Assembly (NCBI RefSeq): GCF_009914755.1
Contig: NC_060935.1
Length of the DNA: 64,000 nucleotides
Origin: the human T2T-CHM13v2.0 reference genome, Homo sapiens
Strand: one strand, 5' to 3'
A program made the position numbers and the translations under genes. Positions within the stretch are counted from its first letter, which is position 1. Each line of letters starts with the position of its first letter. Below the pieces are notes generated by a model that saw only the letters and a list, made by a program, of their open reading frames with translations, was not told the DNA's origin and searched no databases. This document shows, one piece after another, positions 4,563 to 55,955 of this stretch.

Positions 4563-4569
<7 letters not shown>

Positions 4570-4612
<43 letters not shown>
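4570..4612. repeat. (TA)n microsatellite
   Basis: About 20 perfect TA units. Confidence 0.95.
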
Positions 4613-4619
<7 letters not shown>

Positions 4620-24449: not shown

Positions 24450-25260
24450 CTGTGTTTTTTATTGTTTTCCCAGCACCTAGTCCAATGTTGAATAGTGAAG
24501 AGAGTGGAAATATTTGCATTGTTTACAGTCTTAGATTGAAACTTTTAATGCTTCTCGCTTAAGAATAATGTTAGCTTTAGTATTTTTGTAGATGTCCTTC
24601 ATCAGTTTCAGGACATTTCCTTCTATTACTAGTTTGCTGGTAATTGTTTTCATGAATAGATGTTGAATTATTTCACTTATTTTACTGTATCTATTGAGGT
24701 GATTATATGGCTTTTCTGCCTTACTCTATTAATATAGAAATCACATTAATAGATTTTCATTTGATAGATAAACTTTGTATTGCTGAAATAAGCTCTACAT
24801 CGTCATGATGTATTATTCTATATACAAATTACTAAATTAATTTGCTGTATTTTATTAAGGATTTTGTGTTTATGCTCATGAGTTGTTGGTCAGTAATTTT
24901 GTTTTCTTGTAATGTATTTATGTATTTGTCGTATTTTGGTATTAGAGATTCAGAGGCCCAGTCCCTGTTTTCTGGGAGTTCTTTTATATGATGGACATTA
25001 TTTCCTTTTCCAATATTCAACAGAACTCACTGTTAAAGATATTAAGGCCTAAGCATTTTTTATGTGAAAAATTTTAATGATGAATTTAATTTTTCAAGTA
25101 AGTGTTAGGGCATTTTGAATTTTTATTTCTTCTCGTGTCAGTTTTAGTAACTTGGGTTTTTCTTTAAGAAATCTGTACATTTCCATGTAAGTTGTCAAAT
25201 TTGTTGGCCTAAAGTTGTTCATAGTGTTCTCTCATATTCTTTTAATGTCTGTAGGATCAA
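24450..25260 (-). mobile_element. Old L1M ORF2 fragment
   Basis: aatgttgaatagtgaagagagtgg...; degenerate RT-region sequence. Confidence 0.7.
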
Positions 25261-25541
25261 GAGGCATGCAGTAAAAATATGTTGCATTGAATAAATTACT
25301 AAACCATAGAAATTGACCTAGCTCTTTTCCAACTCATTCACTGATTTTCAAACTTCTAAAACAAAAAAAATCCATTTGATTTAATAAAGACTTCCTCAGA
25401 AGAATTAAGACACATGAAATTAAAGAAATATGGGTATGAATAAAGTGAAGATAATTTTGGGAAAACATCAGCTCCTTTAACTTGCCCTTATTCTCCTACT
25501 GTGACAACTCAGAAGTTTCCATTTTATAAAAACTTGAGTTC

Positions 25542-26670
25542 TTAAAGATCTTTGAGTTTGATTTTAGAGCTCAAAGTAATAATTATTTGTCTATCTAGTG
25601 GGTAAACAGAGAGTAAAGAAAGGCTAATTAGTCCCCATGCAAATAAAATTACAACATTTTAGAGCTGGAAATATTTTTATAAACCCTTTAAAAGAAACAC
25701 AGACATAATCATGACCATATTGAAAGGTAAGCATAAAATATTTTGTTTATTATTATTATTTTTTATCTATAAAAACTTGAATTCTTGTTTATTATTGTCT
25801 AAATATTTTATCTATTATTATCTAAATATTTTGTTTATCTATTATTACCTATTTGTTATCTATAAAAACTTGAGTTCTATTGAATACATTTTGAGAAATC
25901 ACTTAAAGTTTATTAAATGGAGTGAAATTGTATTCATTTTTGCGTTCTCCATAATACTTAGCACAGTGATTTGCACATAGTGTTCACTACGTGTTTTATT
26001 AATGAATGGAGACAAATATCTTTGACCCATGTCAAAGGAATAAAAATAATCAATTTTTGAAATAAACTAGGCTTTCAGCCATATATAAAATTTAAATTAG
26101 AGCCTTTATATAACTTTCAGAGCTGAACAAGAACCCAGCATGGTAAATTTACTTTAATATTTATATTTGTATGAAGAATATTTGATGGAGTGTAATATTT
26201 ATGCTTTGAGGTATGACCTATATTTATGCTAATTTTCAGACACTATAACCAAACAGTAATTAGGCAGGTAGGGGGCCATTAGAAGATAGTGCATTTCTCT
26301 TTCTTCTTATAAATTTCTGATGTGATCAGTTTGTTTACTGAATGAGAAGCCAGGGTTTTCTGCATTATTAATATTCTACTTCTGCTTTTATCACAGCATG
26401 AACCTTCTTTTCTTCAGACATATGCCAATGACAATGACTGAAGAAAAGACTTGCAGTCGTAATAGATAAAATATTTTATGCTTACCTTTCAATATGGTCA
26501 CAATTATGTCTGTGTTTCTTTTAAAGGGTTTATAAAAATATTTCCAGCTCTAAAATGTTGTAATTTTATTTGCATGAGGACTAATTAGCCTTTCTTTACT
26601 CTCTCTTTACCCACTAGATAGACAAATAATTATTATTTTGAGCTCTCAAATCAAACTCAAAGATCTTTAA
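25542..26670. repeat. Inverted repeat, 211-bp arms (25542-25752 and 26460-26670), 707-bp spacer
   Basis: Manual alignment is ungapped with 8 mismatches (~96%); the arms do not resemble a repeat I recognise. Confidence 0.95.
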
Positions 26671-27278
26671 AGATTATTCTTTTTTTTTATTTCACTGTAT
26701 TCTCAAAATCAAAAGTACAGTGATTTCCAATGGCCTGGTAGTCACAAAAATAGATAGTTTTAGACTACAAAACATGTGTAGTTCTCTGAGTTAAAATGTT
26801 GGGAAGAGGTCCCCTTTACCTATTCTTCACCTTGCTTTCAAGATGTAGTTCTGTTGTGATTCAAGCATGTTTGAAAGACCTTTTTGTTGATTTCATTGTA
26901 AAAATTTAGGCTCCAGAAAAAATTTTGGCAGATTTTCTACTCTTAAAACAGTTCCTTCCAGAATGCAAATGTGAAGAATTAAAACAGCCACACAAGGCTT
27001 TTTTTTTTTTTTTTTCTGGTCATCCTGGTAACTAATGGCTTTCACTATAGCAGATATAGCAGAAATAAAACTTCAAACTGAGCGCTATAGGCAATGATAG
27101 AATGGATTTTTTGCATATGTTGACCAATGTTGTTAATCTCGTGATTCAGTGATTGGCCTTATAATTACAATTAGCATAGATATACTCATTGTGGTAGAAA
27201 CACTATTTGCTACATAACTATAACTCATCTACCCTAAAAACTTGCCTATGCTTCCTGCTTCATTTTATTGTTGCTTCC

Positions 27279-27618
27279 TGTCTGTTTTCATGCTGTTGAT
27301 AAAGACATACCCAAGACTCGTCAATTTACAAAAGAAAGAGGTTTAATGGACTTACAATTCCACATGGCTGGGGAGGCCTCATAATCATGGTGGAAGGCAA
27401 GGAGCAGCAAGTCACCATGGATGGCAACAGGCAAAGAGAAAGCTTGTGCAGGGAAACTCCTCCTTATAAAACCATCAGGTCTCATGAGACTTAATCACTG
27501 TAATGATAACAGCACAGGAAAGACCATCCCCATGATTCAATTACCTTCCACCAGGTCCCTCCCACAATATATGGGAATTCAAGATGAGATTTGGGTGGGG
27601 GGACAGCAAAACTATATC
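27279..27618 (-). mobile_element. THE1B-like solo LTR
   Basis: gataaagacatacccaagac...gagatttgggtgggg...actatatca. Confidence 0.85.
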
Positions 27619-27727
27619 AACTATCATTGCTATTATCATTTTCATCATCCCTATTATAAACAACCTGCTGAGGATTCCTAAATTGATAAATTCCTCCAAC
27701 ATCCAGGTTTAGAAGAGTACAGCTAAG

Positions 27728-35625: not shown

Positions 35626-35662
35626 TCTCTTTCTCTCTTCTCCTTCTTATATCCTTATTATA

Positions 35663-35742
35663 TTAGGTTGGAGCAAAAGTAATTGTGGTTTTTATCATTA
35701 CTTTCAATGACAAAAATCATAATTACTTTTGCACCAAGCTAA
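35663..35742. mobile_element. MADE1 (Hsmar1 mariner MITE)
   Basis: 80-bp near-palindrome ttaggttggagcaaaagtaattg...aattacttttgcaccaagctaa with TA on both flanks. Confidence 0.92.
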
Positions 35743-37223
35743 TATGTATGTTATACCTTTTATTGTTTGTTCCAAAGTTTTTGGATATTCTGGTCTATTT
35801 TCTAAGTCATTTTTCTCTTTTTTTTCAGTTTTGGACATTTTTATTGAGATACCCTACTCAAGCTCAGAGATTCTTTTCTCAGCCATGTCCGTGGCTGAGC
35901 CCACCACAGCCATTTGTCATTTATGTTACACTGTTTTTGATCTCGGTATTTCTTTTTGATTCTTTCTTAGGATTTTTATCTTTCTACTTGCATGGCCATA
36001 TGATCTTTAATGCTGCTTACTTTATCCATTAAAGCTGTTAGCATAGTAATCACAGTTGTTTTCAACTTCAAGTTGGATAACTCTTATATCCGTTCCATAT
36101 CTGAGTTTAGTTTTGATGCTTGCTTTGTCTCTCTAAACGGTGTATTTTGCCTTTACTGTGCCTTGTAATTTTTTCTTGGTAGCCAGACGTGAGGTACCAG
36201 GTAGAAGGAACTGCTGTATATAAGTCTTCAGTAAAATGTGGTGAGGTGTGGGATAGGGAAAGCATTCTGTACTCCTGAGATTAAGTCTGAGTCTTTCAGT
36301 GAGCCTGTGCTTCAGAAATCTCAACCTCACAAGTGCTTGTCAATTATCCTTCACCCCACTTGGTTGGGACAAAATGGCGAAAGTGAGCTAGAATGTGGTA
36401 TTTTCCTTCCCCCAGGTCAGTTAAGCACTGAAAAATTCTAATAGTTTAGGCTCCAGTAAAATAATTTCTTTGAGGGCAGGACTTATGAAGAAAAACCGAA
36501 TGCTCTGGTCTATTTCAAAAGGCTACTTTTCTTCTCCTCCTCCTAGAAGCATGAGGGATTTTTCTTATTTGCTGTGAGAACCTGGTTGAGCTCCTAGAGA
36601 TAAAACTCACAAAAGTATAGGAACTCCCCTATTATTTGGTCCCTTGGGAGTTTTTAACTCTCAGACTTGTCCACACTCAATCTCTAGGAATCCATCAATT
36701 ACAATTAAGGGTTTCCTACCCCAGTAATGGTTCCTGCAGAGGTGGGTTTCTGCTCCGTTAAGTTGTGACTATCTGTACTTGCCTGTCTGCCTCTCCAGCT
36801 TTTAGGGTAGTGGTTTGCCCTGCAATCTCATTTCTCTGACAGATGTGAGAAGAGTTGATTTCTCAGTTTGTTCAGCTTTTTACTTGTTGGGAGGAGATGG
36901 TGACTTCTAAGCTCCCCACTTACCAGATCGGAAAACTGGGGGAGGGGCAGCCTTCCAAATGTGTGGAGTGATAGAAACAATCTGGCAACAAATTGCCTCC
37001 CAAAGTGCATTCATTCAGTGCTGTCTGTGTTAGTGTCCCAGCTGCTCTCCCTCCCATTTGCGTCATACCTGGTGCTGACAGTGATTGTGGCTTTTGAAAA
37101 TTTGATAAAAATTGATTTGCTTATCTACTTTTCTCACCAAAATTCCAGGGTTTGGCTTTCAGGCTGAAAGATAAGTTACGACACATCCATCCACCTTCTG
37201 GCTGGCAGGTTTTACTGATATTA

Positions 37224-37602
<379 letters not shown>

Positions 37603-39051
37603 TTAATAAAGATTCAGGAGGAAGCAAGTTAAATGGGTATACTCAGTCTGCCGTTTTAACTCTTATTCCTTGAGACCCATGGGAAGAATCTTTCTAGTCT
37701 GTCCGCAGTGAAAATAGAACAGTTGTTCACAGTTCTCTCTACAGGCTGTTCCCTTGTGTCTGTCTGCAAGAGATTTATGAAATAGCCCAACACACCCTGT
37801 TCTCTTGGTGAAATATATTAATAGAAACCCTCTTAAGTTTTTTAAGGAAGCAGCTATTAACAACTTCACATAAAGGAGTTCTTACTGGGGAAATGGAAAA
37901 TTATGGACATAAAAATAGAACTTAAAATATTTGATATACCAGATGGGTAAACTTTATAAGCATGAACTTTAGGTGAGGATTTTATTGTCATTTTAATTCT
38001 TTAACCTTTCTTTAGAGTTCAGGACTAGACAGAGAAACTCATGAAGAAAATAAAGTTAAGGGCCTCTTTTCCATTTTCAAGAAGGCCCTTACAGTGATCC
38101 AGAAACCTCAAGATTCCTTCTCTCTTCTGTATCTTCACCTCCCCCTTTTGTATCCATGTATTTCTATGACTACGTGGAGACACATGCACATATACACATG
38201 AATGGATGATTGGTTAGATACAGATGTACATACACCAATGACAGAGAGCTAGATATACATATATACCTTAATAGAAAACAAATTTAAAAGTCTATACCTG
38301 AGATCCTTTGTGATTGATAAATATGATTTTTAGGCAAATGGCTGCTATGATTGACCTTAAGTTCAGGAAAAGGAACCCCTCTGAAAATACTGACGGAATC
38401 ACAATGAGTGAACTTCCTAATACATGTCTTTGTTCTTCCCTTTGACTTAGGAGGATTGTATGTAATATTTAGTCTTTGCTGAAGGGACTTACCAACTTCA
38501 AAAGTGGAGAAAAAAAGTAAGGAAATCCTGGCATCACTTTGTAATAGCCATAATAGGTGAGATAGCAGGAATGGGGATAAAATTACAAGTAACCTTAATA
38601 CTTTATATTAAATAAATCTTGAGGAAATTTATGGTAGATTTATTGTTATTTGCTATTTGCATTATTTTACAAATATAAATGAAATATTTTTTCTAGTACT
38701 ATACTAATCATTGTGGGGAATACCATTATATAATTTAGTCTTTGTCATGAAAATGTAATAAAGAATTCATGAAAACAAGGTATGTATACTTAAAAGTTCT
38801 AAAATAATGTTAGGTAATATATAAAAGAACAAAAAAGATGTAGTAACAGATGTGATTTTTATAAACACCACGGAGCTGAGATGGAAGGAATTTGTGGTAA
38901 TTTGAGACAGAAGGAAACTCACCCCTACACTTTCAGTGGGAGTGAGATTTAAGACATGTTTTTAAGAGAAATTGACATGGGCAGACAGTCCAGATTAGCA
39001 GGTTATATGAGTATGGTACCTAGATGGGGGTAAAATGGGTTGGTGATGTAG

Positions 39052-39356
<305 letters not shown>

Positions 39357-40129
39357 GATGTAGTTATTTTTAAATAAACATGCATAGTTTTATTGTGCAA
39401 ATTTAATAATCAGTATATATTGTTGAGGATATTTTAAGCTCCCTGAGACAAACAGATAAATAAAAATAACAAAAACAAACACAACTACTAAATCAGGATA
39501 GATCATGTCCCATTATATCCCTAACTGAAAGCAGTGACAGTAGGTCACCCTCTTTCCAATATCCAGCAAAATGTCTTTTCTATAATTGATAGTAAGAAAA
39601 AAATTGTCTCATGGAATAAAATAGGAGAAACTGATGTCTGCTTAGTATTTAGGATTATAAGTGCTCATGAGCTACATGTCAAGTAATTAGATTAATCAAG
39701 ATGCAGCCACTGACTTTAATTAAACTTTACAGCACTGAGTGAAGAGTAATAAACTTATATAAAATAAAATGGGTAGGATTTAGGGTCAATCTGCATTGCA
39801 TATTAATCAGATGTTGAGTGTTCTCTCTCAAAACACATACTCACAAAGAATATATTCAAAAGCTGCCTAAACATCTTGTCAGTTTCAGTTATGACAGTAG
39901 CCATCTGGACACTCCTGAACAGCTGCAGGTGTAGCATCACATGGCCATGGTGAAACTTAATGAAGAATGAACATATGATTTAATTCATTTTGACTTTGAA
40001 TTAGAATTAGAAGTCTAACTCCTGGAAATATGGGGCCAAGCCCACTGATGGTATTTATTTTGTTCTCTTGAAGAAAAATCTTCTCCAAATAGGAATTAAG
40101 AGCTTTGTTCTAAGATAATATGCTGTGTA

Positions 40130-54295: not shown

Positions 54296-55356
54296 CAGTC
54301 AGCCCTTGAACAATGTGGGGTACAGGCCCTCTTACAGAGTCAAAAATCCACATACTACTTTTGAATCCTCCAAAACTTAACTACTGATATGCTACTGTTG
54401 ACTGGAAGCCTTACCAATAACATAAACAGTCAATTAGTACATATTTTGTATGTTATATGTATTATATACTGTATTCTTACAATAAAATAAGCTAGAGAAA
54501 AGAAAATATTTAGAAAATCATAAAGAAGAGAAAATACCTTTATAGAGCTGTAATGATTGATACTATAAGTTTACATCATTGGTTTACAAAATGAATCATA
54601 TGTCTGAAATGATAGGCAACTGCAGCTGTAGACCTCAATCTAAGGTACATATCAAGAAGTTTAACTTTTTGGGGCTACTGTCATGACTTTTCTCTGCTTC
54701 TTGTAGCACTTCCAATATCACTAGAGGTGCTTCATATGTGCACCTTGGTGTTATTTGAGGTTTACCATATTGGACTAAACATGATGAAAAATACACGAGA
54801 ACTGCAATAGGTCACTTTTCACTGTGATACACAATTTTCTGGAGAGACAAACTGCTCATGTGGAGTGACTAAGGTCATGTGGGGTTTTACGTAGATACTC
54901 ATGACACTTAAGCTCATTGCAATAGCAGCAGGAGGTGGCTACAAAATTATTACAGTAGTACAATATGCACTGCAATGAATTTTATGCAGTTATGATTTAA
55001 TGCTGAATATTTACATTTGTTTACATTTCTCTTGAGTACATAGGATGCCATGCATGGTCTATAAGTGTTTGTATGCATAAGTTTTGATAACTTTTAACTT
55101 TTTATAATAGAATTGTATTTATTTTATAGTTATAAATGATAAAATAGACTAGTATTCACATATATTTTCTGTAGTTATTGCATATCTAACTTTATTATTA
55201 TTTGCTATTTCTAGACTACATTGTCCATCAGTGGGTTTTCTTTCAAATTGTTGCAAACCTCCAAGAAATTTGCCAATTTGCCAATATATTTATTTTAAAA
55301 ATCTGCATATACTTGGAACTGTGCAGTTTAAACTCATCTTATTCAAGAGTCAACAG
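54296..55356. mobile_element. Tigger2b-like non-autonomous element
   Basis: TA-cagtcagcccttgaacaa ... ttcaagagtcaacag-TA, about 1.06 kb. Confidence 0.8.
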
Positions 55357-55395
55357 TATGTATGTGTATATATACACACACCACATACACACACA

Positions 55396-55684
55396 CAATC
55401 GTGTGCTGAATAATGACATTTCACTCAACAACTAACTGTATATATTGCTTTTAGGTATACAAACACTTACCATTGTATTGCAATTTTCTACAGTATTCAA
55501 TACAGTAACAAGCAGTACAGATGTATAGCCTAGGAACAATAGGCAATACCACATAGCCTATGTATATAATAGGCTATACCATTTAGGATTGTGTAAATAC
55601 ACTCTATGATATCAACAAAACAATGAAATTACCTAACAACATATTTCTCAGGCCATATCCCCATTGTTAAGCAATACATGACTG
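55396..55684. mobile_element. Tigger3a (MER7)-like element
   Basis: tagcctaggaacaataggc; ends ccccattgttaagcaatacatgactg. Confidence 0.75.
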
Positions 55685-55823
55685 TTTGTATATACACATA
55701 CAAACCCACAAAATAGGGATTGGCTGATGCAATTATGAAAGCTGAGAAGTCACACAATCTGATTCTCCAAACCAGAGAACGTGGAAAGCCAATGGTGTAA
55801 TTCAGTATGAGACTGAAGTCATG

Positions 55824-55955
55824 AGTTAAAAGTTATCAAAACTTATGCATACAGACGCTTATAGACCATGCATGGCATCATAGGTACTCAAGAGAAATGT
55901 AAACAAATGTAAATAGGCAGTATTAAATCATAACTGCATACAATTAATTGCAGTG
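55824..55955. repeat. Inverted 132-bp copy of 54968-55099
   Basis: Ungapped reverse-complement match with 9 mismatches. Confidence 0.93.

What the first reader, a model, noticed from the sequence alone, without database searches (positions are those of the whole stretch)
25525..26670. 211-bp inverted duplication of non-repeat DNA with a patchwork junction: templated insertion and possible inversion substrate
Seen: 25542-25752 is the ungapped reverse complement of 26460-26670 (8/211 mismatches), with a 707-bp spacer. The left arm is bracketed by an 18-bp direct repeat TATAAAAACTTGAGTTCT (25525-25542 and 25861-25878), with a third near-copy at 25768-25785. 25753-25860 is built from re-copied junction pieces (aaatattttatctatta at 25801-25817 equals the end of the right arm). 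One site reads CA in one arm and TG in the other, consistent with an ancestral CpG decaying separately after duplication. Inference: ~336 bp were inserted at a break by iterative template switching (polymerase-theta TMEJ or MMBIR/FoSTeS), using the right arm as donor. The arms could now mediate inversion of the spacer or fold into long dsRNA if transcribed.
Basis: partly seen in the sequence, partly recalled or inferred. Interest (0 to 1): 0.8.

Follow-up and report, generated by a model that had tools for sequence, protein, structure and literature searches.

The report
Old templated inverted insertion, gene desert
A 211-base stretch of unique human DNA was copied backwards into a spot about 0.8 kb away millions of years ago, a known kind of replication or repair scar with no sign of function.

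Summary
Window 25542-25752 is the ungapped reverse complement of 26460-26670 (203 of 211 bases, 707 nt between the arms). The arm occurs only at these two places in the 3.1-Gb assembly. A transposon arm from the same window, used as a control, gave 594 candidates.

The left copy and 108 nt of AT-rich filler lie between two identical 18-mers. So the left arm is the insert and the right arm is the donor, which lay 581-792 nt downstream before the event. The donor tract stops 10 nt short of a 16-bp hairpin, one of only two such hairpins in 64 kb. Both returns to the target use the same 3-nt TAT overlap. Arm divergence suggests an age of roughly 10-40 Myr, with wide limits.

Best reading: a templated inverted insertion made by template switching (MMBIR/FoSTeS type, switch-point order 4-1-3-2). 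It is a long-range member of a described class and is probably neutral. A second single-copy local inverted pair lies in the 264 kb I scanned, so such pairs are not rare here.

No orthologue or human haplotype data were available. Absence from outgroups, inversion of the spacer and any dsRNA therefore remain untested.

The parts
25525..25542 (+). Target 18-mer, copy 1. Its last base (T at 25542) is shared with the start of the inverted copy, a 1-nt overlap.
   Evidence: identical (18 of 18) to 25861-25878.
25542..25752 (-). Left arm: the inserted reverse-complement copy of 26460-26670.
   Evidence: 203 of 211; a direct repeat brackets this arm only.
25753..25860 (+). AT-rich filler ('patchwork') between the inverted copy and the second 18-mer. 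It contains re-copied donor-end and target pieces.
   Evidence: 25736-25785 aligns to 25824-25878 (48 of 55 columns, 5 of them gaps, E 1e-8); parse against shuffles.
25768..25785 (+). Internal near-copy of the target 18-mer. It is entered through the same TAT overlap and left at the same base (..TTCT|T) as copy 1.
   Evidence: 17 of 18. The 19-nt family D2 shows the same following T.
25801..25817 (-). Second, exact copy of the donor's last 17 nt (reverse complement of 26460-26476).
   Evidence: (I5), 9: 17 of 17.
25861..25878 (+). Target 18-mer, copy 2, the duplicated target site. Its first three bases (TAT) overlap the donor end.
   Evidence: 25856-25863 equals the reverse complement of 26462-26469.
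25879..26459 (.). Ancestral single-copy DNA that lay between the target site and the donor. It now forms most of the 'spacer'.
   Evidence: no other place in the assembly at E<=10; 0 Pfam families in the 5 open frames of 50 aa or more overlapping 25400-26800 (window 25337-26791).
26406..26449 (.). Hairpin (16-bp stem with one mismatch, 12-nt loop). It lies 10 nt beyond the point where copying of the donor stopped.
   Evidence: I10; 1 of only 2 such hairpins in 64 kb.: -13.5 kcal/mol as DNA, z -4.8, 0 of 200 shuffles fold as well.
26460..26670 (+). Right arm: the donor (template) of the inverted copy.
   Evidence: no flanking direct repeat of 8 nt or more.

Best explanation
This is the fossil of one old germline rearrangement, a templated inverted insertion made by template switching.

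Inferred course of events. A growing + strand copied the target as far as the last base of the 18-mer (25542). It then left its template and re-primed about 792 nt further on, on the opposite (+) strand at 26670, with one base of overlap. It copied backwards for about 210 nt to 26460-26462 and stopped a few bases short of a stable hairpin (26406-26449). After one or more abortive cycles that re-copied the donor's last about 17 nt and the target 18-mer, it returned to the original template 18 nt upstream of where it had left, through a TAT overlap. That return duplicated the 18-mer.

In the four-point notation the switch points are ordered 4-1-3-2. The process is of the MMBIR/FoSTeS kind: a replicative or break-induced template switch onto exposed single-stranded DNA.

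The two copies then diverged by ordinary point mutation for roughly 10-40 Myr. The element has no detectable function. It is an inverted repeat that could in principle pair or recombine.

What is shown: the anatomy, the single-copy status, the direction (left arm is the insert), the overlaps, and the hairpin next to the stop point. What is inferred: the order of switches, the single-event origin of the filler, the enzymes, and the age.
For: - The arms match at 203 of 211 bases and the homology ends abruptly on both sides.
- The arm occurs at only two places in the assembly. The donor region and the junction are unique.
- The same search finds 594 candidates for a transposon arm in this window. 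It finds 764 candidates at 69-80% identity for old repeats 270 nt to the left of the target. It therefore detects repeats when they are there.
- An 18-nt direct repeat brackets the left arm plus filler and abuts the arm exactly. No such repeat brackets the right arm.
- Both entries into the 18-mer use the same junction: donor end ..TTATC, then a shared TAT (25761-25770 and 25856-25863 both match 26462-26471/26469).
- Both the first and the internal 18-mer copies are left at the same base (family D2). This points to a fixed discontinuity at 25542/25543.
- The donor tract ends 10 nt from one of only two stems of 16 bp or more in 64 kb. The other is a TA microsatellite.
- The mismatches are 6 transitions and 2 transversions and include a CA/TG pair typical of CpG decay. 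This fits long independent divergence and not an assembly error.
- The class is described in print. Walker et al. 2021 (PMC7954356, passages read) report events where point 4 precedes point 1. These give a direct repeat plus a single large insertion carrying an inverted copy.
- Osia et al. 2021 (PMC8421209, passages read) describe germline inverted templated insertions with junction microhomology. [quoted passage not shown]
Against: - No orthologous sequence was available, so the empty site in outgroups is not shown.
- The overlaps are short (1 nt and 3 nt) and close to what an AT-rich sequence gives by chance.
- The filler is low-complexity. Apart from two pieces it is no better templated than shuffles. 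It could be later slippage and not part of the event.
- The hairpin association was noticed after the fact, and the hairpin's age relative to the insertion is unknown.
- The copied tract (about 210 nt) and the jump (about 0.8 kb) exceed the ranges the published detectors search. Those ranges are a template within 100 bp and +/-100-140 nt. Membership therefore rests on topology and not on those operational limits.
- An 18-bp target duplication is also what L1-type insertion gives.
Confidence: 0.62

Rival explanations
1. This is double-strand-break repair by polymerase-theta-type end joining (TMEJ/SD-MMEJ) with snap-back synthesis. The 3' tail of the right-hand break end, ending in ..ATA, folded back about 0.6 kb along its own strand and primed at the matching ATA at 26463-26465. 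It was extended to 26670, dissociated, went through further abortive rounds, and was joined to the left end.
For: The geometry fits: the TAT/ATA overlap lies at the priming end and the 1-nt overlap at the joining end. Repeated short re-copied pieces at a junction are typical of iterative, low-processivity synthesis.
Against: - A continuous tract of about 210 nt, primed about 0.6 kb from the end, is far longer than foldback insertions reported at breaks. Most are about 5-34 bp in yeast (PMC11724301, abstract as shown in the search listing only).
- Both ends would have to keep the same 18 nt. That needs an 18-nt staggered break whose complementary tails failed to re-anneal.
Confidence: 0.17
2. 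A simple templated inverted insertion (arm plus 18-nt duplication) came first. The AT-rich filler, including the internal 18-mer copy, arose later through separate slippage or small template-switch events.
For: - Removing 25745-25809 (65 nt) leaves a left arm whose end matches the donor exactly.
- The filler is a 23-27-nt periodic, low-complexity array (family D1), a kind of sequence prone to slippage.
Against: - The two junction copies (25736-25785 and 25824-25878) differ by 2 substitutions in 50 aligned bases. That is the same level as the arms, so they are not visibly younger.
- They are separated by 38 nt that match neither flank. No single tandem duplication produces the observed order (my own reading).
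Confidence: 0.3
3. This is an L1 ORF2p (target-primed reverse transcription) insertion of a cDNA copied from a local transcript. The + strand was nicked after ..TTCT, primed on an RNA running through 26460-26670, stopped at the RNA hairpin, and produced an 18-bp target-site duplication.
For: - The 18-bp duplication lies in the usual range for L1-type target-site duplications (range recalled; the duplication itself is).
- There is a small overlap at the far junction.
- Truncation at a hairpin would also stop a reverse transcriptase.
- L1 activity is reported to leave inversions and templated insertions at its insertion sites (PMC11702581, passages read).
Against: - There is no poly(A) or A-rich tract at either end of the insert.
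- The nick site reads TTCT/AT, not the TTTT/AA-type cleavage motif (motif recalled).
- A retro-copied RNA has no reason to land 0.6-0.8 kb from its own source in a 3.1-Gb genome.
- No gene or transcript is annotated here (hub annotation).
Confidence: 0.05
4. The whole of 25542-26670 is a DNA transposon with 211-bp terminal inverted repeats. Alternatively, the structure is an assembly artefact.
For: The shape (two inverted arms around about 0.7 kb) resembles the real transposon-like element at 54968-55955 in the same window.
Against: - There are only 2 copies of the arm in the assembly, against 594 candidates for the control.
- No duplication flanks the whole unit.
- The 5 open frames of 50 aa or more overlapping 25400-26800 (window 25337-26791) gave 0 Pfam matches.
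- An artefactual fold-back would have identical arms. These differ at 8 sites with a mutation-like spectrum.
Confidence: 0.02

Closest known systems
[quoted passage not shown]
   Same: A reverse-complement copy of nearby sequence appears as a single large insertion. A direct repeat is created because the return point lies upstream of the departure point. The result is a new inverted repeat.
   Different: Their search covers only about +/-100-140 nt around a mutation cluster, and their events are short. Here the jump is about 792 nt and the tract about 210 nt. There is also 108 nt of extra filler with repeated visits to the same two points.
Microhomology-mediated templated insertions, MMB-TI, attributed to MMBIR (Osia et al. 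2021, PMC8421209; passages read)
   Same: The insertion is in inverted orientation to a nearby template and has junction microhomology. Such insertions are found as germline or evolutionary variants in normal human genomes. Complex cases are copied from several templates.
   Different: Their detector requires the template within 100 bp and an insert no longer than a sequencing read. This case is larger, further from its template, and old (3.8% arm divergence).
L1 target-primed insertions and twin-priming inversions (Porubsky et al. preprint 10.1101/2021.12.20.472354, abstract and passages; PMC11702581, passages)
   Same: There is a target-site duplication of typical length, an inverted segment under 2 kb, and a small overlap at one junction.
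   Different: There is no L1 sequence, no poly(A) and no endonuclease-type target motif. The source is single-copy DNA next door.
Inversions flanked by inverted repeats and formed by non-allelic homologous recombination (same preprint, passages)
   Same: The arms just reach the 200-bp flanking-repeat length that the authors count as consistent with this mechanism (132 of 183 resolved balanced inversions).
   Different: The arms are only 211 bp with at most 74 bp of unbroken identity. No inversion is known here, and this assembly carries the original orientation.

Membership tests
Templated inverted insertion by template switching (MMB-TI / four-point event 4-1-3-2) | The inserted tract is the reverse complement of a nearby sequence. 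| tested here: met
   203 of 211 bases, ungapped. The donor lay 581-792 nt from the target before the insertion.
Templated inverted insertion by template switching (MMB-TI / four-point event 4-1-3-2) | The template is local unique DNA, not a copy of a dispersed repeat. | tested here: met
   The arm has 2 of 2 matches at this locus. The donor region is unique at E<=10. Positive controls gave 594 and 764 candidates. No repeat library (Dfam) was available.
Templated inverted insertion by template switching (MMB-TI / four-point event 4-1-3-2) | There is microhomology at the switch junctions. | tested here: inconclusive
   There is a 1-nt overlap (T at 25542) and a 3-nt overlap (TAT, used twice). 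These are present but short enough to arise by chance in 27% G+C sequence.
Templated inverted insertion by template switching (MMB-TI / four-point event 4-1-3-2) | A direct repeat is created by returning upstream of the departure point (point 4 before point 1). | tested here: met
   The 18-mers at 25525-25542 and 25861-25878 match 18 of 18 and abut the insert exactly.
Templated inverted insertion by template switching (MMB-TI / four-point event 4-1-3-2) | The ancestral (outgroup) allele lacks the insert and has a single copy of the target. | not testable with these tools
   No primate or other human assembly was reachable. The assembly has no relatives in the search tool (header).
L1-mediated (target-primed) insertion | Target-site duplication of about 7-20 bp (range recalled). 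| tested here: met
   The duplication is 18 bp.
L1-mediated (target-primed) insertion | There is a poly(A) tail at the 3' end of the insert. | tested here: not met
   Neither end of 25543-25860 is A-rich on the relevant strand.
L1-mediated (target-primed) insertion | There is a TTTT/AA-type endonuclease site at the target (motif recalled). | tested here: not met
   The site reads ..TTCT/ATTG on one strand. On the other reading it is ..ATTT/TATAAAAA.
DNA transposon with terminal inverted repeats | Multiple dispersed copies exist in the genome. | tested here: not met
   There are 2 candidates, both at this locus. The real element at 54968-55955 gave 594.
DNA transposon with terminal inverted repeats | A target duplication flanks the whole unit, and transposase remnants lie inside it. 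| tested here: not met
   No shared flank occurs outside 25542 and 26670. There are 0 Pfam families in 5 of the 11 open frames listed, those of 50 aa or more.
Inversion substrate for non-allelic homologous recombination | Flanking inverted repeats are at least about 200 bp long. | tested here: met
   The arms are 211 bp at 96% identity, with a longest perfect block of 74 bp. The threshold is the one used in 10.1101/2021.12.20.472354.
Inversion substrate for non-allelic homologous recombination | Both orientations are observed among haplotypes or species. | not testable with these tools
   No pangenome was available. The preprint's supplements are closed and its main text has 0 mentions of chr11. 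The published version is not held.

The most novel reading that the evidence does not exclude
The locus records a kilobase-range, multi-cycle template switch in the primate germline that was arrested by a hairpin. The nascent strand shuttled at least twice between two fixed stop points: a discontinuity at 25542/25543 and the foot of the 26406-26449 hairpin. If orthologues date it as one event, it would be a natural example showing two things. Germline MMBIR-type synthesis can use single-stranded template about 0.8 kb ahead. Secondary structure in the template sets where the copied tract ends. A bolder addition is that the resulting 211-bp inverted repeat toggles the 0.7-kb spacer in human populations, or yields edited dsRNA.
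Probability: 0.12. Interest if true: 0.5.

Novelty: new member of a known kind. Interest (0 to 1): 0.25.

Why it matters
As one locus in a gene desert it matters little. No gene, RNA family or protein domain is involved (hub annotation).

Its value is as a clean, fully readable example of a large, long-range templated inverted insertion. The donor, target duplication, junction overlaps and a candidate stalling structure are all preserved.

Published detectors search only about 100 nt around an event. Cases like this one are therefore systematically missed. I found a second single-copy inverted pair in the 264 kb examined, which suggests the long-range class may be commoner than those catalogues imply. 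A genome-wide census against ape T2T assemblies could test that.

Tried and rejected
- Rfam, E<=1, over 24500-27700: nothing in the arms or spacer. The only hit is a sub-threshold mir-4922-like match at 24972-25030 (33 bits against a gathering score of 82).
- Pfam on 5 of the 11 stop-to-stop frames of 40 aa or more, namely those of 50 aa or more: 0 families.
- Transposon reading: rejected on copy number.
- L1 reading: rejected as the main explanation for lack of poly(A) and of a target motif.
- A 20-nt imperfect inverted match, 25888-25907 against 26690-26709 (16 of 20, I6), considered as a guide for the switch. Rejected because it is not coaxial with the new arms, and 16 such pairs occur in 3.2 kb.
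- A 7-nt word (TTGAGTT) shared by the 18-mer and the arm start. This is about chance level by my own rough estimate, and it lies at the wrong position to explain the junction.
- A single tandem duplication as the source of the internal 18-mer copy. It does not fit the observed order of pieces (reading).
- Inversion catalogues. The published paper is not held. Those supplements could bear on whether the spacer is polymorphic.
- Literature searches for 'dispersed/local inverted duplication' terms and for long inverted repeats: nothing specific to this locus or to this size class.
- A second 200-kb sample of flanking sequence, wanted for the frequency estimate, was not obtained. The estimate therefore rests on 264 kb.

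Full report
**1. The observation**

The region was read directly and scanned for repeats. Window 25542-25752 and 26460-26670 are reverse complements over 211 nt without gaps. They differ at 8 positions: arm positions 23, 34, 65, 93, 168, 169, 203 and 205, counted from 0. Homology stops abruptly at both ends, and neither the outward nor the inward extension exceeds chance. BLAST E-values are 3e-95 within the window and 9e-93 against the 3.1-Gb assembly.

The 18-mer at 25525-25542 recurs exactly at 25861-25878 and with one change at 25768-25785. Window 25801-25817 is an exact reverse complement of 26460-26476. The dinucleotide that reads CA in the left arm reads TG in the reverse complement of the right arm.

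**2. Is it a repeat family?**

The arm has two matches in the whole assembly, both at this locus (2 first-look candidates, 2 scored). The 1022-nt donor region 25879-26900, searched at E<=10, matches only itself, the left arm and a 44-nt local hairpin. The junction stretch 25736-25900 matches only itself.

The search tool warns that a blank does not prove rarity, so I ran controls:
- The arm of a second inverted pair in this window (54968-55099) gave 594 candidates. Of the 40 scored, 38 lie elsewhere at 79-85% identity.
- The 842 nt to the left of the target (24700-25541) gave 764 candidates at 69-80% identity. All fall within 24700-24955 and 25056-25268.

The tool therefore detects both middle-aged and old dispersed repeats here. 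It finds none in the arms, the spacer or the last 270 nt before the target. No Dfam or RepeatMasker library was available, so a very old, highly diverged origin of the donor DNA cannot be excluded. That would not change the argument, because the two arms are 96% alike and match nothing else.

**3. Direction and anatomy**

Only the left arm is bracketed by a direct repeat. A search for shared 8-mers around each arm finds the 18-mer around the left arm and nothing around the right. The left arm is therefore the insert and the right arm the donor.

Removing 25543-25878 (336 nt) restores a sequence with one 18-mer. In that sequence the donor lies 581-792 nt downstream.

The left junction has one shared base (T at 25542). 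The right junction is ..TTATC-TAT-AAAAAC.., where TAT belongs both to the donor end (26462-26464) and to the start of the 18-mer. The same junction occurs twice, at 25761-25776 and at 25856-25868.

The first and the internal copies of the 18-mer are both left at the same base and followed by T (family D2). The donor's last about 17 nt appear three times: 25736-25752 (15 of 17), 25801-25817 (17 of 17) and 25834-25844 (11 of 11). Each copy ends at the same donor base, 26460.

**4. How far is the filler templated?**

I parsed 25753-25860 greedily into exact matches against the reconstructed ancestral sequence. It needs 13 pieces with a longest piece of 16 nt. In 500 dinucleotide shuffles the mean is 15.2 pieces (minimum 14) and the longest piece is at most 15 nt. 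None of the 500 shuffles reaches either observed value.

The signal comes from two pieces, the donor-end copy and the near-copy of the 18-mer. The remaining pieces are 5-10 nt of AT-rich sequence and carry no information.

The two junction modules, 25736-25785 and 25824-25878, align over 55 columns with 2 substitutions and 5 gap columns (E 1e-8). Their substitution level (2 of 50) equals that of the arms. They are separated by 38 nt that match neither flank, so a single tandem duplication does not produce the observed order. I therefore prefer one complex event. A simple insertion followed by later slippage remains a live rival, at about 0.3.

**5. A candidate cause for the stop**

Ten nucleotides beyond the donor's end, in the direction of copying, lies a hairpin at 26406-26449. 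It has a 16-bp stem with one mismatch and a 12-nt loop. As single-stranded DNA it folds at -13.5 kcal/mol, z = -4.8, and 0 of 200 shuffles fold as well. The predicted structure extends to 26454.

In the whole 64-kb window only two stems of 16 bp or more with at most one mismatch and a 3-20-nt loop exist. The other is a TA microsatellite. A polymerase reading the + strand from 26670 downward would meet this structure just after 26460.

The association was noticed after the fact. Even allowing 8 flank positions of 20 nt, the chance is about 0.003 by my own estimate. It depends on the hairpin being older than the insertion, which is untested.

**6. Age**

Eight differences in 211 give a Jukes-Cantor distance of 0.039 (95% limits 0.017-0.077). 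Without the CpG pair it is 0.029. At 0.5-1.0e-9 substitutions per site per year (rates recalled), the point estimates under the four counts of differences I tried span roughly 10-40 Myr. The binomial limits run from about 3 to 77 Myr.

Error-prone synthesis at the event would make the true age younger, and gene conversion would make it older. The spectrum (6 transitions, 2 transversions, one double CpG decay) is that of ordinary germline mutation and argues against an assembly artefact.

**7. Mechanism**

The topology is that of a four-point template switch with the points ordered 4-1-3-2. The strand leaves at 25542, enters the opposite strand at 26670, leaves at about 26460, and returns 18 nt upstream of the departure point.

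Walker et al. 2021 (PMC7954356, passages) describe exactly this subtype. It produces a direct repeat and looks like one large insertion. They liken the return step to strand invasion in break-induced replication. Osia et al. [quoted passage not shown] Both detectors look only within about 100-140 nt, so this case lies outside their range (a jump of about 792 nt and a tract of about 210 nt).

I favour a replicative or break-induced switch at 0.62. End joining by polymerase theta with snap-back synthesis fits the geometry. However, it would need a very long tract and an 18-nt staggered break whose complementary ends failed to re-anneal (0.17).

An L1 ORF2p event copying a local RNA shares the 18-bp duplication. 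It lacks poly(A) and a target motif, and it does not explain why the source is next door (0.05). A transposon or an artefact is essentially excluded (0.02).

**8.

If the stretch were transcribed, the arms would pair. In the minimum-energy RNA fold of 25542-26670, 205 of 211 arm positions pair with their mirror partner. As DNA the figure is 206 of 211.

Nothing shows transcription. No gene is annotated (hub note). Rfam gives nothing in the arms or spacer, only the sub-threshold miRNA-like hit outside them noted in section 11. The five open frames of 50 aa or more have no Pfam match.

As a recombination substrate the arms just reach the 200-bp flanking-repeat length used in the inversion survey I could read. 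There, 132 of 183 resolved balanced inversions have such repeats (preprint 10.1101/2021.12.20.472354, passages). The longest perfect block here is only 74 bp.

The second 18-mer and the filler lie inside the inter-arm interval and are still in direct orientation next to the left arm. This assembly therefore carries the original, un-inverted state. This is an inference from the anatomy.

**9. How unusual is it?**

I scanned 264 kb, made of the window plus 200 kb fetched to its left (a second 200 kb was not obtained). The scan looked for local inverted pairs with arms of 80 nt or more, identity of 88% or more and a spacer under 5 kb. Three were found:
- this one;
- the transposon-like element at 54968-55955;
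- a pair at contig C11 37194816-37194950 / 37197217-37197351 (124 of 135, spacer 2266). It is also present only twice in the assembly but has no flanking direct repeat of 8 nt or more.

Single-copy local inverted duplications are therefore not rare in this region (2 in 264 kb). What distinguishes the finding is how completely its junctions are preserved.

**10. Verdict**

The feature is real and correctly described, and its origin was largely correctly interpreted. It is a new, unusually large and long-range member of a known class of mutational scars. It lies in a gene desert and shows no evidence of function. Interest is low to moderate. The hairpin-adjacent stop and the repeated use of two fixed switch points are the details worth following with ape orthologues.

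**11. Noticed in passing**

- A transposon-like element with 132-nt inverted ends at 54968-55955.
- Old dispersed repeat pieces at 24700-24955 and 25056-25268.
- An 86-nt self-complementary stretch at 35660-35745.
- An Alu-sized inverted pair at 37254-37583 / 39044-39374.
- A sub-threshold miRNA-like hit at 24972-25030.
- The second single-copy inverted pair outside the window, described in section 9.

Noticed in passing
window 54968-55955: A 988-nt unit with 132-nt inverted ends (93% alike, 724 nt between them). The arm is multi-copy in the assembly: 594 first-look candidates, and 38 of the 40 scored lie at other loci at 79-85% identity. It looks like a non-autonomous DNA transposon with long terminal inverted repeats. 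It is not among the masked stretches of 100 nt or more listed by the hub. The family is not named because no repeat library was available.
   Followed up: partly
G000 C11:37194816-37194950 and 37197217-37197351 (L003:8816-8950, L004:1217-1351), about 190 kb left of the window: A second single-copy local inverted duplication: 135-nt arms, 124 of 135 identical, 2266 nt apart, and only these two copies in the assembly. There is no flanking direct repeat of 8 nt or more. From memory the arm resembles a MIR core, but the two arms are far too alike to be independent MIR insertions.
   Followed up: partly
window 26406-26449: A stable 16-bp hairpin (one mismatch, 12-nt loop; -13.5 kcal/mol as DNA, z -4.8). 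It is the only non-microsatellite stem of this size in 64 kb. It may itself be the product of a short template switch.
   Followed up: partly
window 24700-24955 and 25056-25268: Pieces of an old dispersed repeat (764 first-look candidates; scored matches at 69-80% identity on many chromosomes). They end about 270 nt before the insertion target.
   Followed up: no
window 24972-25030 (- strand): A weak match to the Rfam mir-4922 precursor family (33 bits against a gathering score of 82, E 0.0028). It is below threshold and most likely chance.
   Followed up: no
window 35660-35745: An 86-nt stretch that is its own reverse complement at 81% identity. It looks like a small palindromic, miniature-transposon-like element.
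   Followed up: no
window 37254-37583 and 39044-39374: An inverted pair of about 330 nt at 78% identity, 1.5 kb apart. Both copies lie in masked stretches. Their size fits two Alu elements in opposite orientation (family recalled, not tested).
   Followed up: no
window 4569-4614: A (TA)n microsatellite. It forms the only other long perfect hairpin in the window.
   Followed up: no
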